This document shows, one piece after another, positions 42,960 through 49,523 of a stretch of DNA of 64,000 nt (within the stretch, counting starts at the first letter, position 1; the number at the start of each line of letters is the position of its first letter). The notes under the pieces were generated by a model that saw only the letters and a list, made by a program, of their open reading frames with translations, had not been told where the DNA came from and did not search any database. Source of the DNA: a virus; the IMG/VR virus record IMGVR_UViG_3300046559_000436, positions 1 to 64,000 of that record; one strand, 5' to 3'. The position numbers were made by a program, and so were the translations under genes.

Positions 42960-43931
42960 GTGGCTGCACCGATTACTGTCTCGTGGTCCGAAATCAACAA
43001 CTACCGATCGTGCCCTCACAAGCACGAGCTGGAGTACACCCAGCGCTGGCAGCGGCCCAACAACCCCCACTCGGCCCTCGGTCGGGGAACCTTCGTCCAC
43101 AAGGTGCTTGAGGTCTACTACACCTCGCTCCTGACCGGCAAGGACATCGAGACCGCCTACCGGGACGCCCGTCGCGAGATCGGCGACTACCGTGGGCTGG
43201 GCTTCGACCGTGAGACCTGCGACCTGGTCGAGTGGATTCTTGAGGGGTACCACGAGAAGTGGTCGACCGAGGACTCCCTGAAGTGGAAGGTCGTCGCGGT
43301 CGAACACCGGTTCCAGGTTCCGCTACTGACTGCGGGCGGACGTAAGTCTCGGTTCATCCTCAAGGGCGGCATCGACCTGATCGTCCGGGACCAGCGCGGC
43401 CGATTGATCATCATCGACCACAAGACCTGTGCCGTCCTGCCGGACGATCAGAGCTACGAGATGTCCGACCAGTTCGGCCTGTATCTGTGGGCCATGCGGC
43501 AGCTCGGTCACAAGATCTTCGCGGGCATCCACAACGCGCTCAAGACCAAGCGCAACAAGGGTGACTTCCCTGAGAACGTCGAGATGTGGGAAACTGTGAA
43601 GGCCGAGGGCGGCAAGCCCGGCGCCAGGCCGGTTCCCCAAGAGCTGGATGCACGGTTCGCCCGGACCTGGCTGGCCCGGACCGACCGTGAGCTGACCACC
43701 ATCGCCCTCGAAGCGATGCAGACCGCGCAGAAGATGCACAACGCCAGCCTCCCCAAGGAGCGCAACCCCGACGACATGAAGTGCAAGCGGATGTGCTCCT
43801 TCCGCGACGCGTGTATCATCGGTCGTCGACAGGGGCCGGAGAAGGAACTTCACTTCCTAAAGGAGGTCGGGTTCGTTCAGAACTTCGCTCGCCACCTCGG
43901 AGAGCCCAGCAACCCGAACAGCCTCCTCTAG
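42960..43931 (+). CDS. PD-(D/E)XK RecB/Cas4-like exonuclease
   Basis: SWSEINNYRSCP, GTFVHKVLE, GGIDL, IIDHKT, QFGLY, C..MC.F...C. Confidence 0.85.
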   Translation: MAAPITVSWSEINNYRSCPHKHELEYTQRWQRPNNPHSALGRGTFVHKVLEVYYTSLLTGKDIETAYRDARREIGDYRGLGFDRETCDLVEWILEGYHEKWSTEDSLKWKVVAVEHRFQVPLLTAGGRKSRFILKGGIDLIVRDQRGRLIIIDHKTCAVLPDDQSYEMSDQFGLYLWAMRQLGHKIFAGIHNALKTKRNKGDFPENVEMWETVKAEGGKPGARPVPQELDARFARTWLARTDRELTTIALEAMQTAQKMHNASLPKERNPDDMKCKRMCSFRDACIIGRRQGPEKELHFLKEVGFVQNFARHLGEPSNPNSLL

Positions 43932-43940
43932 GAGTTCAAT

Positions 43941-44108
43941 ATGGACGACCAGAACCTGAACGCCGACTTCGACAAGCTCTCCGAGAGAGTCAGTCTCAAG
44001 CAGCTGGCCGATCAGGGGGTCGAGGCTCTACTGGCCGGACTCGGCAATCGGGTTCTTCCCGACGCCGTCGGCCAGGTCGGAGTGGCGGCCTTCAACTCCT
44101 CGATCTAG
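43941..44108 (+). CDS. hypothetical protein (55 aa)
   Basis: AGGAG SD; MDDQNLNADFDKLSERVSLKQLADQGVEALL... Confidence 0.6.
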   Translation: MDDQNLNADFDKLSERVSLKQLADQGVEALLAGLGNRVLPDAVGQVGVAAFNSSI

Positions 44109-44113
44109 GGGAC

Positions 44114-44143
44114 TTGACTCTAGCACAAGACATGTGCTAGAAT
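44114..44143 (+). promoter_or_regulatory. strong promoter of the RNA operon with an overlapping palindrome
   Basis: TTGACT-18-TAGAAT; CTAGCACA(44120-27)/TGTGCTAG(44133-40) inverted repeat. Confidence 0.75.
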
Positions 44144-44314
44144 GGGATTACTCCGGAGACGGGGCGGGTTCCTTCCCCCCGACTCGTCCCGTCTCACGGA
44201 CAAAAGCTTCCACCTGCACTAAGTACCCAGCTCTTGCGGACGACCTTTCACGGGGAAGGTCGGGGCTACCTGGGAGACGTGGTCAGCGGAAGGGCGGCGG
44301 CCGTAAAACGTGGT

Positions 44315-44386
44315 GTGCTGGAAGTCGTCGGCGGGACGACGCCCCCTAAACCGGGGAGACGGTGGGTTCGAGCCCCACTCAGCATA
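44315..44386 (+). ncRNA. aberrant tRNA-like RNA (loop CTAAACC)
   Basis: Acceptor GTGCTGG/TCAGCAT, D stem GTCG/CGAC, 4-bp CCCC/GGGG anticodon stem, T arm GTGGG-TTCGAGC-CCCAC. Confidence 0.55.
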
Positions 44387-44649
44387 CGAATGGTCACACC
44401 AAGTGCACTTGGCGCATTCGAACACCCCGACATACAGTGACCTCTGGTCGGATCGCGTACTAAACCCGTCCATGCTTACCCTTACGGGTCGGCGGCGTTC
44501 AGGGAGACGGGGTACCGGGATAGAGTGAACGTACTCCCGGGAAGGTGGGCCGGACGTCTGTATGCCGCAGTTTACGGGCACACGGGTAACAGTCAGAATT
44601 GCGAGACTAGAATCCGGGAGCGGGAGGGGTACCCCGCACAACTTAACAA

Positions 44650-44758
44650 GGGCCTGTAGTTTACTTGTCCGAACGAGGGGCGCCCCTCAAGTAGGTCGCA
44701 CTACCGGAAGAACGGCGGCAGAAATCCGCTGGTGCGGGTTCGAATCCCGTCAGGTCCA
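44650..44758 (+). ncRNA. aberrant tRNA-like RNA with Ala identity and a D-loop insertion
   Basis: GGGCCTG/CAGGTCC-A acceptor (G3-U70, A73), TA-GTTT..GAAC D stem with a roughly 40 nt insert, GCGG-CAGAAAT-CCGC, GCGGG-TTCGAAT-CCCGT. Confidence 0.6.
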
Positions 44759-44943
44759 CGTTGTCCAGGTCACCACGGTCGAGGAAACAACCCCTCGGAC
44801 GGATCGAGACGGACAAGCACAGACGATCGTGACCGAGTCTGTGCTCAGCAGAGAAGCGGCGCAGACAAGGGCAGGGCCGCCACGCGGGGAGCGCCTCCGG
44901 AAACGGAGGACACGAGGGATGAGACCCGCATCCAACTTAATAA

Positions 44944-45024
44944 GCCCCTTTGGCGGAATGGCAGACGCGCTGGTCTTAGGAACCAGTGTCTTCGGACGTG
45001 AGAGTTCAAATCTCTCAGGGGGCA
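44944..45024 (+). tRNA. tRNA-Leu(TAG)
   Basis: GCCCCTT/AGGGGGC acceptor, CTGGT-CTTAGGA-ACCAG, long variable arm, GAGAG-TTCAAAT-CTCTC; no encoded CCA. Confidence 0.93.
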
Positions 45025-45159
45025 CGGGACGTACAGAATGTCGGAAGTAACCGGAGTGGAACACGTCGGAGTGCGCACGATGACGTGGAAAGCAAAGGCG
45101 AGGTAAGACAATAGCGCAGAACGCCGGACGGTGTTTGTCTGCCACGTCCACCGATCACT

Positions 45160-45233
45160 GCCCCTTTAGCTCAGTTGGCCAGAGCGGCTGCCTTGTAAGC
45201 AGCGGGTCGCCGGTTCGAATCCGGCAGGGGGCT
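45160..45233 (+). tRNA. tRNA-Thr(TGT)
   Basis: GCCCCTT/AGGGGGC, GCTGC-CTTGTAA-GCAGC, GCCGG-TTCGAAT-CCGGC. Confidence 0.93.
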
Positions 45234-45399
45234 CTAGCCTGGGACCGACGGGTTCCGGGTGAGGTCGCGGGAAGGCCACCCGACGACCATCGGCTGTGCG
45301 TAGGCGCTACTGGGATGCTGCAGACCCAGGGTCGGTCCGAGTCCGGCGGTCGAGCTGAGCTAGGTGAAAGTGACCCCACCCACTTCCTCCGGTGCTCCG

Positions 45400-45440
45400 A
45401 GAAAACCCCTCTGTTGCCTGGAAAGCAGAGGGGTTTTCTT
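45400..45440 (+). terminator. intrinsic terminator of the RNA operon
   Basis: AGAAAACCCCTCTG/CAGAGGGGTTTTCT followed by T. Confidence 0.8.
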
Positions 45441-45506
45441 GTGCTTACGTGTATTCCGCCAGAGAAATAGAGCATGGTACAATTATATATAGAGAGGAGG
45501 ACGCGT

Positions 45507-45716
45507 ATGCTGAACAGACCGGCAATTCGACAGCGCATGTCAGAAATGGGCATCAACCAGGCCACTCTGGCTAAGAAGATGCACGTCAAGGACATGCACG
45601 TGTCACTGTGGCTAAACAACCACAGAGCCCCAGACTTGCCCAACGTCATCAAGATCGCGGATGCGCTTAACTGTAGTCTTGATGACATCGTGATCAGAGT
45701 CAGGAGCGCGGCGTGA
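45507..45716 (+). CDS. XRE-family HTH regulator
   Basis: GAGGAGG SD; GINQATLAKKMHV..VSLWLNNHRAPDL..IADALNCSLDDI. Confidence 0.85.
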   Translation: MLNRPAIRQRMSEMGINQATLAKKMHVKDMHVSLWLNNHRAPDLPNVIKIADALNCSLDDIVIRVRSAA

Positions 45717-45789: not shown

Positions 45790-48705
45790 ATGACCACTAC
45801 CCCCTCAATTACACCACAGACAATGTCGAGCACGCAATGCGAGCTGCGACAGGGTTGCCCCATGGCCCGCGTCCACGGCCCGTTCGCTGACGGTTACCTG
45901 GAGTACCAGCGGTCCGGTTGGCAGGGAACTCTGCCGCTGCCGAAGCTGGAGAAGAACGACCCTCCGCGCGGGTTCACCGGTCAGAAGTTTATCGAGGTCT
46001 GGCCGACCGAGTCCGACCTGCACATGTGGTCCCACGAGTCCAGCTCCAACCTGGGTCTCAGGCTGCCGAACGACATCATCGGCATCGACGTGGACCAGTA
46101 CATCAAGAAGGGCCGCCCGAAGACCGGCCACGACCGATTGGTCGTGCTTGAGAAGACGCTAGGGGAGCTTCCGCCCACCTGGCGTTCGACTCGACGCGGC
46201 TACAGCAACCCTTCGGGTATCCGGTTCTTCCGGGTTCCGGCCGACAAGATGTGGCCGGGCGTGGTGGATATCGACGTCGAGGTCATCCAGCATCGTCACC
46301 GGTACGCCGTGGTCTGGCCGTCGGTGGTGCCGGACACCGAGACCGGCGAGGTCATGCAGTACCAGTGGTTCACCCCCGAGGGCGAGGTGGCGATCCGTCC
46401 GCCGTCCCCGAGCGAACTGCCGGAACTGCCGGAGGCGTGGGTGCGCCACCTGTGGCAGCAGGCCAGGGTGTCGGGGTCGGTAACGGTTCGGTCGGGTGAC
46501 TATCCGATCATGCCGGACATCCCGGACGAGGTGGACACATCGGCCCCGTGGTATCTGAAGGCACTGGCCAGGCCGGACGCCAGCGGTCGGGGCAACCAGA
46601 CCATGGTGTCGGTAGTCGGCGGCATCGCCAAGATGTTCGTCGAGAGTGGCCTGCCGTACGAGGCCGCCGTTGCCACCGCGTTGGGTTACGAGCGCAGCTC
46701 GATCGACCCGCAGCCGGACGAGACCGTGCTGGATCGCCTGCAGTATTTCTGGGCCGTGGAGATGGCCAAGAAGCGCGAGCGGGACGAGGCTACGCCCTTC
46801 AGCACCCTACGGCCCCAGAAGATCGCGGGAGACCCCACCGGAGCCCCCGGAGACGTCACGACGGGCGTAGTCTCGGAGGCCATGTACGACGACGAGGACA
46901 GGGGGTACCTGGCGGAACGGATCGACGGCAAGGTCGGATACTCGACCATCACCATCGAGATGTCCAAGAACGGACCGAAGCCTGTCGAGGTGATCTACTC
47001 CGATTTCGAGATCGAGGCGGTCGGAGTGAGCGCCAACCAGGCCGGTGACGGGACCACCTGGGTGGTCAACATCACCAAGCGGGACGGAACGGTGCTGGAG
47101 GACGTCGAGCTGCCCAGCAAGACTCTCAGCTCGACCAACACGGCCCGGGGGTGGTTCGCGGATCGTGGCTGCATTCTGTCGGCCAGCGACGACAAGAAGT
47201 ACGGACCGATGGGCCTGCGGCTTCTCCGGAACCTGCAGTGGCAGAATCCGGCCAGCTTCCGGGTAACGGACCACCTCGGATGGGACGACCGCTCGGGAAC
47301 CTTCGTCACGTATGAGGGGGCCATCACGGCGAACGGGATCAACCAGCGCGCCGAGGCCAGGCCGAGCCGTGGACTGAAGAGCCGCAAGCTCGTCAACCAC
47401 CACTACGGCTTCGGAGACGAGGAGCGCACGAAGGAGCTGCTGCGGGAGATCCTGACCTTCCACGACAGCACTTTCACCTCGGTGCACGCGGCGTGGATGT
47501 GCGCGGCTGTACTGAAGGGTCACCTGATGCGCAAGTCGTCGCTGTTCCCGATCTTCCTGGTCGAGGCGGCGTCGGAGTCCGGCAAGACCACCGGCTACGC
47601 GCAGCTGATCCGTCAGTTGTTCGGGGATCTGTCCAAGGAGGAGGGCGTCGGCACCCGGGCCAGCATCCGTAACGCCTTGACGGCGCACCGAGGAGCACCG
47701 GTCCGGATCGACGACGCGGACGAGCTGGACTCCATCAAGGAGATCCTGCGCCAGGTTCCGAACGAAGGCGCGGTTGACAAGTCGGGTGAGGACAACCAGT
47801 CCACCGTCCGGGCCAAGCTGGTCGCACCGGTCTGGATCTCCTGTGAGGGGTCCGGAATCCGGGGTGAGAAGGCGATGATGGACCGCGTGGTGACCTGCGA
47901 CCTGCCCAACCCGAAGGGTCGCATGTCGCTGAAGGACCCGAGTCGGACCCAGTGGGACGACATCGTGGACTTCATGGGGGACCACTGCCAGAGCGAATTC
48001 GGTCTGACCGAGTACTCGGGCACGCTGGTGCAGATGATTCTCAGGGAGTCCCGGCTGATCGAGGAGTTCGGCCGCCTGAGGAAGGCCAGCGGACGGTACA
48101 ACGACAAACTGGCGGTGCTGAAGGTGGGGGCCAGGGTGCTGGCGTCCGTCACGGGCGACGAGTCCCACATCGTTCGGGTCGACGAATGGTGCGATACCCA
48201 GATCGACACGGGCGATGAGAACGCGCTGACCATGACGGTGATTCCGGCGGCCATCACTGCGCTGGGCATTCACGAGACTCCGATGCGTGAAATGAAGCCC
48301 CCGTACTACAACATCCCGGCTCCGGTCGTGTTCCTGACGGAGAAGGACGGCAGCCAGTCCATGTGGGTGCACATCAAAAATCTGGCCAGCTGGTGGGAGA
48401 AGCACCGGAACGGCCGGATCGAGGAGCGGACCGAAACGGCCACGGCTCTCCAGGAGCAGTCGGCCAGGATCGGAATGCGCGGTGGCAAGGCTGGCGTAAG
48501 AAACCGGGACTGGAAGCAGGTGTGCATCACTGACACGCTCGGCGGCAAATACCCTAATGAACGCATCTACATCGTTCGGATCCCCGACAAGTACCGGGAC
48601 GTCATTCTCGAACGACTCGGACTGGAGACCAGCGAGGAGCGCGTGCAGGGCACTTCGAAGCTCACGCCCGGCCAAGTGATCGCCATCGGGCGGTCCGCCC
48701 ACTAA
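45790..48705 (+). CDS. primase-polymerase / helicase fusion
   Basis: Prim-Pol N-terminus (NLGLRL..IGIDVD, RFFRVP, YAVVWPS); C-terminal P-loop ASESGKTT with RIDD. Confidence 0.85.
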   Translation: MTTTPSITPQTMSSTQCELRQGCPMARVHGPFADGYLEYQRSGWQGTLPLPKLEKNDPPRGFTGQKFIEVWPTESDLHMWSHESSSNLGLRLPNDIIGIDVDQYIKKGRPKTGHDRLVVLEKTLGELPPTWRSTRRGYSNPSGIRFFRVPADKMWPGVVDIDVEVIQHRHRYAVVWPSVVPDTETGEVMQYQWFTPEGEVAIRPPSPSELPELPEAWVRHLWQQARVSGSVTVRSGDYPIMPDIPDEVDTSAPWYLKALARPDASGRGNQTMVSVVGGIAKMFVESGLPYEAAVATALGYERSSIDPQPDETVLDRLQYFWAVEMAKKRERDEATPFSTLRPQKIAGDPTGAPGDVTTGVVSEAMYDDEDRGYLAERIDGKVGYSTITIEMSKNGPKPVEVIYSDFEIEAVGVSANQAGDGTTWVVNITKRDGTVLEDVELPSKTLSSTNTARGWFADRGCILSASDDKKYGPMGLRLLRNLQWQNPASFRVTDHLGWDDRSGTFVTYEGAITANGINQRAEARPSRGLKSRKLVNHHYGFGDEERTKELLREILTFHDSTFTSVHAAWMCAAVLKGHLMRKSSLFPIFLVEAASESGKTTGYAQLIRQLFGDLSKEEGVGTRASIRNALTAHRGAPVRIDDADELDSIKEILRQVPNEGAVDKSGEDNQSTVRAKLVAPVWISCEGSGIRGEKAMMDRVVTCDLPNPKGRMSLKDPSRTQWDDIVDFMGDHCQSEFGLTEYSGTLVQMILRESRLIEEFGRLRKASGRYNDKLAVLKVGARVLASVTGDESHIVRVDEWCDTQIDTGDENALTMTVIPAAITALGIHETPMREMKPPYYNIPAPVVFLTEKDGSQSMWVHIKNLASWWEKHRNGRIEERTETATALQEQSARIGMRGGKAGVRNRDWKQVCITDTLGGKYPNERIYIVRIPDKYRDVILERLGLETSEERVQGTSKLTPGQVIAIGRSAH

Positions 48706-48717
48706 CTTAATACCGTC

Positions 48718-48755
48718 GCTGAGCCCCCCAGGAGGAAGACTCTGGGGGGCTCAGC
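48718..48755 (+). terminator. stem-loop after the primase gene
   Basis: GCTGAGCCCCCCA/TGGGGGGCTCAGC. Confidence 0.7.
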
Positions 48756-49047
48756 TGTATCTCGGGCCTGCAGAAGACTAGGTCTTCCGGAGGACCCCCA
48801 GGGTCTTCCAACTACAAGGAGTCACGAGAAACAACGGGGAGTAGATGACGATTGCTCCCGGAAGAACCCAGGAAGACCCCTATATATATATAAGAAGACC
48901 TATAAGAAGACCTAATATCTTCCAAAAAAGTACGAAGTCAGAGGGGGTGGAAGACCTGAAGACCATAGAAGAAGTAGTTTCTTACGTACGCGCGCCTCTC
49001 ACAGACGTGTGCGTGCAAGGACCCCCCGCTCTCCCCGGAGGGTCTTC
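48735..49047. repeat. GAAGAC iteron-like cluster with an AT core; candidate replication origin
   Basis: About 10 GAAGAC/GTCTTC copies in both orientations around TATATATATATAA (48881-93). Confidence 0.6.
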
Positions 49048-49289
49048 CCGCCCCCTGGGGCTCTCCGGGGAGCTGCGGCTCTCTGTGGGGTCTCTGGCGG
49101 CCTAGGAGCCCCTAGCCGGTCCTCTAGGGCCATCCGCCCCCGTACTGTTGCGGGAGACCCCACAGAGAGCCGGGACGAGCCCAGCCAGCGGCCTGGGTAG
49201 CCTGCCCCTGTGGGCGCTGCGCGGCTCCGGCGCGGTGGCCCTAGTGCCAGGGCTTGCGTCTATGGAAAGGTAGGTAGTTAGATGGGGAT

Positions 49290-49523
49290 ATGACGATGAG
49301 CACTGACCGACTGAACGAGCTTCGCACCTTCGATGCCGACGCCTCGACCCCCCAGCAGCGACAGGACGCCGTCCTGGAACTGACCGCCGAGGTCCAGCGC
49401 TGCTGGGCCCGCATTGCCGAACTTGAGAAGGACTCGGACTTCCTCAACCGCCTCCATGCGGCCGGGGTCGACAACTGGGACGGCTACCACTTCGGATTCG
49501 GCAACGAGGACGACGACGAGTAG
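49290..49523 (+). CDS. hypothetical protein
   Basis: Codon bias; LHAAGVDNWDGY motif common in phage proteins. Confidence 0.7.
   Translation: MTMSTDRLNELRTFDADASTPQQRQDAVLELTAEVQRCWARIAELEKDSDFLNRLHAAGVDNWDGYHFGFGNEDDDE

What the first reader, a model, noticed from the sequence alone, without database searches (positions are those of the whole stretch)
44114..45440. tRNA-punctuated operon of unknown structured RNAs (1.3 kb, own promoter and terminator)
Seen: a near-consensus promoter (TTGACT-18-TAGAAT, with a palindrome over the spacer and -10) and a strong terminator enclose about 1.3 kb with no credible ORF. Four tRNA-shaped units (44315, 44650, 44944, 45160) alternate with 135-265 nt spacers that are heavily base-paired: GAGACGGG/CCCGTCTC (44156/44188), TTGTCC/GGACAA (44761/44811), GCACAGAC/GTCTGTGC (44817/44837), GACGTGG/CCACGTC (45082/45142) and GGACCGAC/GTCGGTCC (45242/45331). 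Known: phage tRNA spacers are usually short and unstructured, and large phage ncRNAs such as GOLLD and ROOL occur next to tRNAs. Inference: the tRNA and tRNA-like units act as RNase P/RNase Z punctuation that releases about five separate functional RNAs, or the region is one large multi-domain RNA. Either would be an undescribed phage RNA system.
Basis: partly seen in the sequence, partly recalled or inferred. Interest (0 to 1): 0.85.

Follow-up and report, generated by a model that had tools for sequence, protein, structure and literature searches.

The report
Phage tRNA operon with RNA mimics
A 1.3-kb protein-free transcription unit of an uncultivated Streptomyces-type phage carries two ordinary tRNAs, two tRNA look-alikes (one with alanine identity marks) and one copy of a conserved folded RNA motif that is not in Rfam and recurs just ahead of tRNA genes in related phages.

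Summary
A strong promoter (44114-44143) and a terminator (45400-45439) enclose 1.3 kb with no coding signal. It holds two canonical tRNAs (Leu-UAG, Thr-UGU) and two non-canonical tRNA-shaped units.

The claim that the spacers are "heavily base-paired" holds for only two of five. The leader (z -2.1) and spacer 3 (z -2.9) fold better than shuffles; the other three do not.

Comparative data pick out four modules.
- **S2 (44547-44638):** GGG, helix P1, a variable insert, GAGC, hairpin P2. About 20 copies were found, one strong copy in each of the six genomes searched whole, including cultured Streptomyces phage Hiyaa. Changes in both helices are almost all compensatory. Rfam 15 has no match. It usually sits 7-13 nt ahead of a tRNA or tRNA-like gene.
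- **Unit 2 (44650-44758):** a G3:U70/A73 alanine-identity mimic. Related phages carry a graded series up to true TLD-only tmRNAs, a kind known from mycobacteriophage DS6A.
- **C-rich-loop hairpin:** the first transcribed element in three syntenic arrays.
- **Junction box CAACUUAAYAA:** it abuts the first G of unit 2 and of tRNA-Leu.

No evidence supports spacers 4 and 5 or one large multi-domain RNA. Functions are inferred, not shown. The scan's first readers had already noted units 1 and 2 and spacer 2 on this same DNA.

The parts
44114..44143 (+). Promoter TTGACT-18-TAGAAT with extended -10 (TG)
   Evidence: 10 of 12 matches. The same type (TTGACn, 17-18 nt, TGnTAnAAT-like) is seen at about 49530 and about 49861 in the window, ahead of the arrays in L006 and L052, and ahead of the S2 copy in L194.
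44152..44199 (+). 5'-terminal hairpin with C-rich loop (UUCCUUCCCCCC)
   Evidence: It is the dominant helix in the fold of 44150-44299 (z -2.77). Rfam 6C gives only 23.5 bits against a gathering score of 47. Analogous C-rich-loop hairpins are the first transcribed element in L006 (two hairpins, z -4.46) and in L199.
44200..44314 (+). Rest of the leader (predicted branched fold)
   Evidence: MFE prediction only. No homologue was found.
44315..44387 (+). Unit 1: non-canonical tRNA-like RNA
   Evidence: It has a 7-bp acceptor stem, a 6-bp D stem with a 5-nt loop, the loop CU-AAA-CC and a canonical T-arm. ARAGORN calls it 'Phe(aaa)'. Rfam tRNA does not match; tRNA-Sec gives 17 bits, E 4.5.
44388..44546 (+). 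Spacer 2, 5' part
   Evidence: No excess structure and no homologue.
44547..44638 (+). S2 motif
   Evidence: Layout: GGG 44547-49; P1 44550-54 with 44613-17; a 58-nt insert; GAGC; P2 44620-24 with 44633-37. Model R1 scores 59.9 bits. Covariation. About 20 relatives.
44639..44649 (+). Junction box 1, CAACUUAACAA, abutting G44650
   Evidence: The 12-mer pattern CAACTTAAYAAG occurs exactly twice in 64 kb (0.05 expected). The same nAACUU-N5-G geometry is seen in L209 (twice), L150, L017 and L025.
44650..44758 (+). Unit 2: alanine-identity tRNA-like RNA
   Evidence: It has G1-C72, G2-C71, G3-U70 and A73, a canonical T-arm and about 74 nt of extra hairpins. Rfam tmRNA matches the ends only: 16.9 bits, E 7e-5. 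Relatives: L199 (30.3 bits), L014, L006 (50.5 bits), L052 (66.5 bits).
44759..44932 (+). Spacer 3, thermodynamically stable
   Evidence: z -2.9. No homologue. R1 scores only 3.3 bits on 44871-44932, so a second S2 copy is not supported.
44933..44943 (+). Junction box 2, CAACUUAAUAA, abutting G44944
44944..45025 (+). tRNA-Leu (UAG)
   Evidence: 56.6 bits.
45026..45159 (+). Spacer 4
   Evidence: z -0.19. No homologue.
45160..45234 (+). tRNA-Thr (UGU)
   Evidence: 68.8 bits.
45235..45397 (+). Spacer 5
   Evidence: z -0.20. No homologue.
45398..45447 (+). Intrinsic terminator
   Evidence: A 14-bp perfect stem followed by a U-rich tail.

Best explanation
The stretch is one host-RNA-polymerase transcription unit of an uncultivated actinophage. 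The host is probably Streptomyces. The unit makes only RNA.

The primary transcript, about 1.3 kb, is cut into several products. The likely enzymes are RNase P and RNase Z, followed by CCA addition, because no unit encodes CCA. Cutting or a second transcription start at the two CAACUUAAYAA boxes is also possible.

The products would be:
- two decoding tRNAs (Leu-UAG, Thr-UGU) for A-ending codons that are rare in high-GC hosts;
- two non-decoding tRNA mimics;
- at least two conserved accessory modules.

Unit 2 keeps the AlaRS identity set (G3:U70, A73) and the T-arm but has no usable anticodon arm. It most likely acts like the TLD-only tmRNA of phage DS6A. That means it would be an alanine-accepting or SmpB/AlaRS-titrating decoy, or a decoy for tRNA-targeting defence. 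The phage also encodes Rnl1 and PNKP.

S2 is a cis-acting structured leader placed directly ahead of a tRNA-type gene. My best guess is that it governs the making or 5'-end definition of the downstream RNA. It could be an antitermination, processing or stability element read by a host factor.

The C-rich-loop hairpin caps and protects the 5' end. It may also pair with G-rich (Shine-Dalgarno-like) RNA, as 6C RNA does.

Shown: the anatomy, the lack of coding signal, and the conservation and covariation of S2 and of the alanine-mimic acceptor stem. Inferred: transcription, processing and every function.
For: - Promoter, terminator and absence of coding signal.
- Synteny of the array with L006, and an array downstream of the exonuclease gene in L199.
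- Canonical tRNAs. Their codons are rare in the phage's own high-GC3 ORFs: CUA 1.9, ACA 3.5 per thousand.
- S2, first alignment: three P1 pairs change only on both sides; covariation score 0.212 against 0.071 in shuffles, 0 of 500 reaching it.
- S2, 20 sequences: five pairs with double-sided changes, 93.9% of cells paired, and 29-55% when the partner columns are slid. P2 changes are compensatory in L017, Hiyaa, L209 and a weakly matched (18.4 bits) second copy in L151.
- S2 is single-copy in each of the genomes searched whole. It was found in 1 of 151 sampled Streptomyces genomes, in a stretch that looks like a prophage.
- S2 lies 7-13 nt ahead of tRNA or tRNA-like 5' ends in the window, L209, L017, L025 and L150.
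- Alanine mimics: 5 of 70 acceptor-plus-T-arm units have G3:U70 and A73, and none of the five is a normal tRNA-Ala. Pair 6:67 covaries (U:A, C:G, A:U) while G3:U70 is kept.
- tmRNA scores run from 66.5 and 50.5 bits (both above the gathering score of 47) through 30.3 down to 16.9 bits.
- Precedent for a TLD-only tmRNA in a phage: PMC4131195, PMC11915505.
- Rnl1 and PNKP genes in the same phage.
Against: - There are no expression or end-mapping data.
- Unit 2 is far below the tmRNA gathering score and lacks the D-loop analogue GGAUUCGAC. It carries two extra hairpins between P2 and the T-arm, which no tmRNA has.
- Units 1 and 2 could be decaying tRNA genes.
- S2 also occurs 24-32 nt ahead of signal-peptide or lipoprotein genes (L154, L189, L190), so it is not specific to tRNA.
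- L199, the relative with the closest exonuclease, has no S2.
- P2 is an inverted repeat with nearly fixed spacing. Its 'covariation' could equally reflect a dimeric DNA-binding site.
- Alignment A6 was fitted to the model, which favours the structure it was built on.
- Three of five spacers show nothing.
Confidence: 0.55

Rival explanations
1. This is an ordinary tRNA cluster with decayed neighbours. Units 1 and 2 are pseudo-tRNAs, and the long spacers are relics of lost tRNA genes with no function of their own. S2 is only a conserved 5' leader or promoter-proximal sequence.
For: Spacers 2, 4 and 5 fold no better than shuffles, and only S2 has homologues. L006 and L199 pack more tRNA-shaped units into a similar length, as expected if units are gained and lost. 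Units 1 and 2 fail the tRNA model.
Against: Both odd units keep perfect 7-bp acceptor stems and canonical T-arms. The G3:U70/A73 combination recurs in five non-tRNA units, with a covarying neighbouring pair. No tRNA remnants are detectable in the spacers at E up to 10. Keeping about 850 nt of junk inside a promoter-terminator unit is unusual for a phage whose flanking genes are tightly packed.
Confidence: 0.25
2. S2 and the boxes act on DNA. The nAACTT box would be an actinobacterial -10 element (ANNNT) that starts leaderless tRNA transcripts at the tRNA's first G. The conserved GGGAGCGGGAGGGGTACCCCGC would be the binding site of a regulator or sigma factor just upstream of it.
For: The geometry fits: ANNNT ends 5-6 nt before a G that is position +1 of the next unit, in the window (twice), L209 (twice), L150, L017 and L025. 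In M. smegmatis 79% of promoters have ANNNT at -6 to -13, with G or A at +1 (PMC6448022). P2 is a fixed-spacing inverted repeat with very high sequence conservation. There is a single copy per genome.
Against: P1 covaries across an insert that varies from 21 to 106 nt. A double-stranded DNA site cannot explain that. The phage's clear promoters are of a different type (TTGACn plus an extended -10). The same invariant AA/CUU also fits the preference of actinobacterial RNase E to cut 5' of C (PMC10641625). Many S2 copies lack the box.
Confidence: 0.15
3. The whole 1.3 kb is one large multi-domain RNA, or it holds self-cleaving (HDV-like or theta-type) ribozymes that trim the tRNAs.
For: Spacer 3 is unusually stable (z -2.9). 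It offers crossing pairings (UUGUCC/GGACAA with GGUCAC/GUGACC) when read by eye.
Against: No Rfam ribozyme or large-RNA family matches at E up to 10. The modules occur separately in other phages. The crossing helices do not fit the HDV spacing (a P3 of 3 bp directly followed by the P1 3' strand). No homologue is available to test covariation.
Confidence: 0.05

Closest known systems
TLD-only tmRNA of mycobacteriophage DS6A (PMC4131195; Mao et al. 2009 as cited there; PMC11915505)
   Same: Phage-borne. Has the acceptor stem with G3:U70 and A73 and the T-arm, but no tag reading frame and no pseudoknots. The relatives L006 and L052 pass the Rfam tmRNA threshold as such molecules.
   Different: The window's unit 2 scores only 16.9 bits. 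It lacks the D-loop analogue and has about 45 nt of extra hairpins before the T-arm, one of them an anticodon-like arm with the loop CAGAAAU.
Phage T4 tRNA gene cluster with its two small stable RNAs of unknown function (species 1 and 2) - from my own knowledge; no paper was retrieved
   Same: A polycistronic phage tRNA transcript from which non-tRNA stable RNAs are released by the tRNA-processing enzymes.
   Different: A different host phylum and no sequence relation. Here the accessory modules are conserved across many phages and include tRNA mimics.
6C RNA of Actinobacteria (Rfam RF01066)
   Same: A GC-rich hairpin whose loop carries a run of six or more C. L006 has two such hairpins, as 6C does.
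   Different: The window has one hairpin only. It scores 23.5 bits against a gathering score of 47. L006 does not match at E up to 1. It is the 5' end of a tRNA operon, not a free-standing sRNA gene.
rRNA-operon leader antiterminators (boxB hairpin followed by boxA) and HK022 put RNA - a working analogy for S2, from my own knowledge
   Same: A small two-helix RNA at the head of an untranslated or short transcription unit, with a hairpin followed by a short single-stranded CA/U-rich box.
   Different: There is no sequence similarity to actinobacterial boxA. No test of antitermination was made. S2 is internal to the window's operon.
GOLLD / ROOL large phage RNAs
   Same: They are found in phages near tRNA genes.
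   Different: No Rfam match. The window's modules are small and separable.

Membership tests
tRNA (RF00005) | Score at or above the gathering score of 29 bits, with a full cloverleaf | tested here: met
   44944-45024 scores 56.6 bits and 45160-45233 scores 68.8 bits.
tRNA (RF00005) | The same test, for unit 1 (44315-44387) and unit 2 (44650-44758) | tested here: not met
   No tRNA match at E up to 10. Unit 1 has a 6-bp D stem with a 5-nt loop, the anticodon AAA and C37. Unit 2 has A33 and a D region of about 55 nt.
tmRNA, TLD-only form (RF00023) | Acceptor stem with G3:U70 and discriminator A73, plus a T-arm | tested here: met
   GGGCCUG/CAGGUCC followed by A, and GCGGG-UUCGAAU-CCCGU.
tmRNA, TLD-only form (RF00023) | D-loop analogue (GGAUUCGAC-like) followed by helix P2 that leads straight into the T-arm | tested here: not met
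   cmscan aligns only the ends, and 74 nt are unaligned. There is a weak likeness (GUCCGAAC plus GAGGGG/CCCCUC), but two extra hairpins follow.
tmRNA, TLD-only form (RF00023) | Score at or above the gathering score of 47 bits | tested here: not met
   16.9 bits. Relatives score 30.3 (L199), 50.5 (L006) and 66.5 (L052).
tmRNA, TLD-only form (RF00023) | Alanylation by AlaRS and binding of SmpB | not testable with these tools
   Needs biochemistry.
6C RNA (RF01066) | Two hairpins, each with a C-rich loop, and a score of at least 47 bits | tested here: not met
   One hairpin; 23.5 bits, E 2.3.
HDV-like / theta and other self-cleaving ribozymes; GOLLD; ROOL; YrlA | Match to the Rfam covariance models | tested here: not met
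   None at E up to 10 over 43900-45700. Covariance models see pseudoknots poorly, so this is weak for HDV-like folds.
S2 motif (defined here, model R1) | 5' GGG, helix P1 of 5-7 bp around a variable insert, GAGC, and a 5-bp P2 hairpin with a purine-rich loop | tested here: met
   59.9 bits, E 1e-11. Pair counts.
S2 motif (defined here, model R1) | Formation and function as RNA, rather than as DNA | not testable with these tools
   Only indirect support. It lies on the same strand as the flanking genes, inside a promoter-terminator unit. A few G:U pairs would be C-A mismatches on the other strand.

The most novel reading that the evidence does not exclude
S2 is a new class of cis-acting phage RNA, one copy per genome. 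It would recruit a host factor (RNA polymerase, RNase E or RNase P) to make or release untranslated tRNA-type RNAs. The operon's tRNA mimics are an RNA-based counter-defence kit: an alanine-identity, anticodon-less decoy and a Phe-like decoy. They would work together with the phage's Rnl1/PNKP repair enzymes and its circularly permuted tRNA-like genes against host tRNA-targeting immunity or trans-translation.
Probability: 0.25. Interest if true: 0.85.

Novelty: new variant of a known kind. Interest (0 to 1): 0.62.

Why it matters
Phage tRNA clusters are usually read as codon-usage helpers. Here a compact phage spends 1.3 kb on RNA only, and the comparative data show that selection maintains several non-decoding parts.

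- S2 is a covariation-supported motif that is absent from Rfam. It is present in cultured Streptomyces phages (Hiyaa, Spocter, Keanu), so it can be tested at the bench straight away.
- The graded series from true TLD-only tmRNAs to the window's alanine-identity mimic suggests that phage interference with trans-translation or AlaRS is more widespread and more varied than the single DS6A case.
- The same phage carries RNA ligase, PNKP and permuted tRNA-like genes. Together these point to an RNA-level arms race around tRNAs in actinobacteria.

Tried and rejected
**Nearest relatives could not be fetched**
The nearest relatives could therefore not be read. These are the primase homologues P0002 (89%), P0003/P0004 (58%) and the Streptomyces mirabilis and S. 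tauricus homologues (50% and 44%), and the exonuclease homologues at 81-82%.
- The primase was not found at E 1e-60 in 401 sampled Streptomyces genomes.
- It was not found in PLSDB plasmids.
- It was not found above 33% identity in GenBank phages.
- A single-protein scan of IMG/VR found nothing.

**Pattern scans that failed**
- One gave only chance hits.
- One was wasted on a wrong gap length.
- Most of the 31 metagenome pattern hits were chance; only L154 was new.

**Sequencing runs**
- No RNA holder is listed. Three rhizosphere or soil DNA runs hold near-identical DNA, with only two single-base differences in the operon region. They gave no covariation and no evidence on expression.

**Ideas tested and dropped**
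- A second S2 copy in spacer 3 is not supported: 3.3 bits.
- An HDV-like reading of spacer 3 was rejected on helix spacing, by eye.
- A G-quadruplex reading of GGG...GGGAGCGGGAGGGG was considered and set aside. The G tracts are broken in Hiyaa and in the weak second L151 match, while the P2 pairing is kept.
- Small-ORF readings were rejected. Indels in S2 are not multiples of three.

**Other searches that came back empty**
- Literature searches for the S2 sequence, for Hiyaa and for the T4 small RNAs returned nothing useful.
- A BLAST search with a short-insert S2 copy found no further cultured phage.
Full report
**Source and setting.** The window is the first 64 kb of a 97,260-base IMG/VR virus record, estimated 96% complete. 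GC content is about 60%. The finding lies between a PD-(D/E)XK exonuclease gene (42960-43931) plus a 55-codon ORF, and an HTH gene (45474-45716) followed by a 971-aa primase-polymerase (45790-48705). The primase's nearest named homologues are in Streptomyces. A piece of the operon matches cultured Streptomyces lividans phages. Near-identical DNA occurs in three rhizosphere or soil runs. The host is therefore probably a Streptomyces-like actinomycete; this is an inference.

**Check of the observation.** The promoter TTGACT-18-TAGAAT, with TG before the -10, is real and is the best in the 2.5 kb scanned. The same type is seen elsewhere in this phage, ahead of the arrays of L006 and L052, and ahead of the S2 copy in L194. 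The terminator is a perfect 14-bp stem at 45400-45439 with a U-rich tail.

A GC-by-codon-phase plot shows a spread of 0.4-0.58 in the flanking genes. The spread is at most 0.18 from about 44110 to 45450. Eight ORFs inside the stretch have no PHROG match. The 1.3 kb is therefore truly non-coding.

Four units carry an acceptor stem and a T-arm. Only Leu(UAG) and Thr(UGU) are tRNAs by Rfam. Tested against 200 dinucleotide shuffles, only the leader (z -2.1) and spacer 3 (z -2.9) fold better than chance. Spacers 2, 4 and 5 do not (z +0.56, -0.19, -0.20).

**Relatives.** Profile-guided scans of IMG/VR gave two relatives.
- L006 (primase 35%, exonuclease 49%) keeps the order exonuclease, promoter, RNA array, terminator, HTH, primase.
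- L199 (exonuclease 55%) has an array with its own promoter after the exonuclease gene and a small ORF, followed by a Sak4-like gene.

Both arrays contain more tRNA-shaped units than ARAGORN calls. BLAST between the arrays finds only the tRNAs. Whole-spacer covariation could therefore not be tested.

**The S2 motif.** One spacer segment did have homologues. 44538-44654 is 75.6% identical to L025:550-663. Two pattern scans of IMG/VR, one of the metagenome collection and a BLAST of GenBank phages gave about 20 distinct copies. Model searches added L017, L209, L202 and one Streptomyces genome.

The anatomy is:
- 5' GGG;
- helix P1 (CC-NNN...NNN-GG, 5-7 bp) around an insert of 21-106 nt;
- GAGC;
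- hairpin P2 (GCGGG, a 7-9 nt purine-rich loop, CCCGC).

In the window, P1 is 44550-54 with 44613-17 and P2 is 44620-24 with 44633-37.

P1 covaries. Three pairs change only on both sides: GC/AU/UA; GC/AU; AU/CG/UA/GC. The covariation score is 0.212 against 0.071 in shuffles, reached by 0 of 500. 94.7% of cells are paired, against 40-55% when the partner columns are slid by 1-3.

P2 was fixed by my search pattern in the first set. The model-found copies show compensatory changes: GUGGG/CCCAC in L017, GAGGG/CCCUC in Hiyaa, GCGAG/CUCGC in L209 and in a weakly matched (18.4 bits) second copy in L151. With 20 sequences, five pairs show double-sided changes and P2 is 100% paired. That alignment is fitted to the model, which flatters it.

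Indels are not multiples of three, so S2 is not coding. Rfam 15 gives nothing for S2 in the window or in Hiyaa at E up to 10 and 5 respectively. A full-text search for the core sequence found no relevant paper.

S2 is single-copy in each of the six phage genomes searched whole. It occurs in 1 of 151 sampled Streptomyces genomes, in a stretch that looks like a prophage.

Its context is consistent. It sits 7-13 nt ahead of the first G of a tRNA or tRNA-like unit in the window, L209 (tRNA-Arg), L017, L025 and L150. It heads a tRNA pair in L191 and a permuted-tRNA array in L198. In L154, L189 and L190 it lies 24-32 nt ahead of genes for signal-peptide or lipoprotein-like products.

**Junction box.** The pattern CAACTTAAYAAG occurs exactly twice in 64 kb, against 0.05 expected. 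Each time its last G is position 1 of unit 2 or of tRNA-Leu. The same geometry, nAACUU-N5-G, precedes tRNA-Arg and the S2 start in L209, and the next unit in L150, L017 and L025.

The invariant AACUU fits two known actinobacterial signals equally well:
- an ANNNT -10 element 5-6 nt before a +1 purine (79% of M. smegmatis promoters; PMC6448022);
- the preference of RNase E to cut just 5' of C (PMC10641625).

I cannot choose between them without end mapping.

**Unit 2.** Its acceptor stem GGGCCUG/CAGGUCC gives G1-C72, G2-C71 and G3-U70, followed by A73. This is the AlaRS identity set (established knowledge). The T-arm is canonical. Rfam tmRNA aligns only these ends (16.9 bits, E 7e-5).

A scan of all fetched loci for acceptor-plus-T-arm units found 70, of which five have G3:U70 and A73. 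None of the five is a normal tRNA-Ala.
- L052 scores 66.5 bits and L006 scores 50.5 bits. Both pass the tmRNA gathering score as TLD-only molecules.
- L199 scores 30.3 bits.
- L014 is a 61-nt tRNA-like unit without an anticodon arm.
- The window's unit 2 is the fifth.

The window, L199 and L014 share GGGCCNG...CNGGUCCA. In these three, pair 6:67 covaries (U:A, C:G, A:U) while the G3:U70 wobble is kept. That argues for selection on an alanine-type acceptor helix.

TLD-only tmRNA is known from mycobacteriophage DS6A. A similar molecule strongly inhibits tmRNA in E. coli (PMC4131195, PMC11915505). Unit 2 fails two defining features: the D-loop analogue and the score. I therefore file it as 'works like', not as a member.

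**Unit 1 and the leader.** Unit 1 keeps the acceptor stem and T-arm. It has a 6-bp D stem with a 5-nt loop and the loop CU-AAA-CC with C37. No homologue was found.

The first transcribed element (44152-44199) is a long hairpin with the loop UUCCUUCCCCCC. It is the main helix in the fold of 44150-44299 (z -2.77). L006 starts with two C-rich-loop hairpins (z -4.46), and L199 starts with one. The window and L006 hairpins share GGAGACG...CGUCUC around different inner pairs. The match to Rfam 6C is sub-threshold (23.5 against 47 bits).

**Wider context in the same phage.**
- Further tRNAs: Arg-UCU, Met and Pro-UGG. Together with Leu-UAG and Thr-UGU, several of these serve A-ending codons that are rare even in the phage's own genes.
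- An Rnl1-type RNA ligase and a PNKP.
- Near 95.8 kb, tRNA-like genes whose halves are circularly permuted. I also saw this arrangement in L014, L036 and L198.

**Verdict.** This is a real RNA-only operon. Its plain part, two tRNAs, is ordinary. Its alanine mimic is a divergent relative of a known but rare kind. S2 is a new, well-supported motif of unknown function. The leader hairpin and the junction box are recurrent. Spacers 4 and 5 and half of spacer 2 have no support. All functions remain inferred.

Noticed in passing
G000 about 95,790-96,010 (L196:12790-13010); L014:8250-8560; L036:8230-8500; L198:1150-1470 (minus strand): tRNA-like genes in circularly permuted order: T-arm, 3' acceptor strand, short loop, 5' acceptor strand, D-arm, with the break in the anticodon loop. 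They occur often in tandem. The same phage encodes Rnl1 and PNKP, which could join the anticodon-loop ends.
   Followed up: partly
G000 about 85,947-87,098 (minus strand) and up to 85,574 (minus strand) (L183): An Rnl1-type RNA ligase (PF09511, 54 bits) next to a kinase-phosphatase PNKP (AAA_33 plus HAD_PNKP). This is a T4-like tRNA repair pair.
   Followed up: yes
window 48,710-49,290: An origin-like stretch just after the primase gene. It has repeated GGTCTTCC/GGAAGACC words, a TATATATATATA tract and GC-rich palindromes. L014 and L036 have similar AT-rich repeat stretches after their primase genes.
   Followed up: no
L006:4718-4812; L017:3497-3590; L199:5396-5519: tRNA genes that match the tRNA model but carry inserts of 20-60 nt in the anticodon region. 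That is too short for group I introns.
   Followed up: no
L197 (Streptomyces phage Hiyaa, MK279841.1, 32,077-32,491): The unannotated 415-nt gap between genes 44 and 45 holds two S2-type motifs and an uncalled tRNA-like RNA that ends in CCA.
   Followed up: partly
L014:8030-8500; L036:7930-8460: A repeated unit, GAGAUGAACG-N5-7-GGUUACC, occurs four to five times in the arrays downstream of the primase gene. Its function is unknown.
   Followed up: no
L199:5830-5960: A run of three T-arm-like mini-hairpins (GGUUCGAUUCC) about 40-50 nt apart, without recognisable acceptor stems.
   Followed up: no
window 44586-44613: A promoter-like site, GTAACA-16-TAGAAT, lies inside the S2 insert. The -10-like part is not conserved in other S2 copies, so I did not count it as a promoter.
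   Followed up: partly
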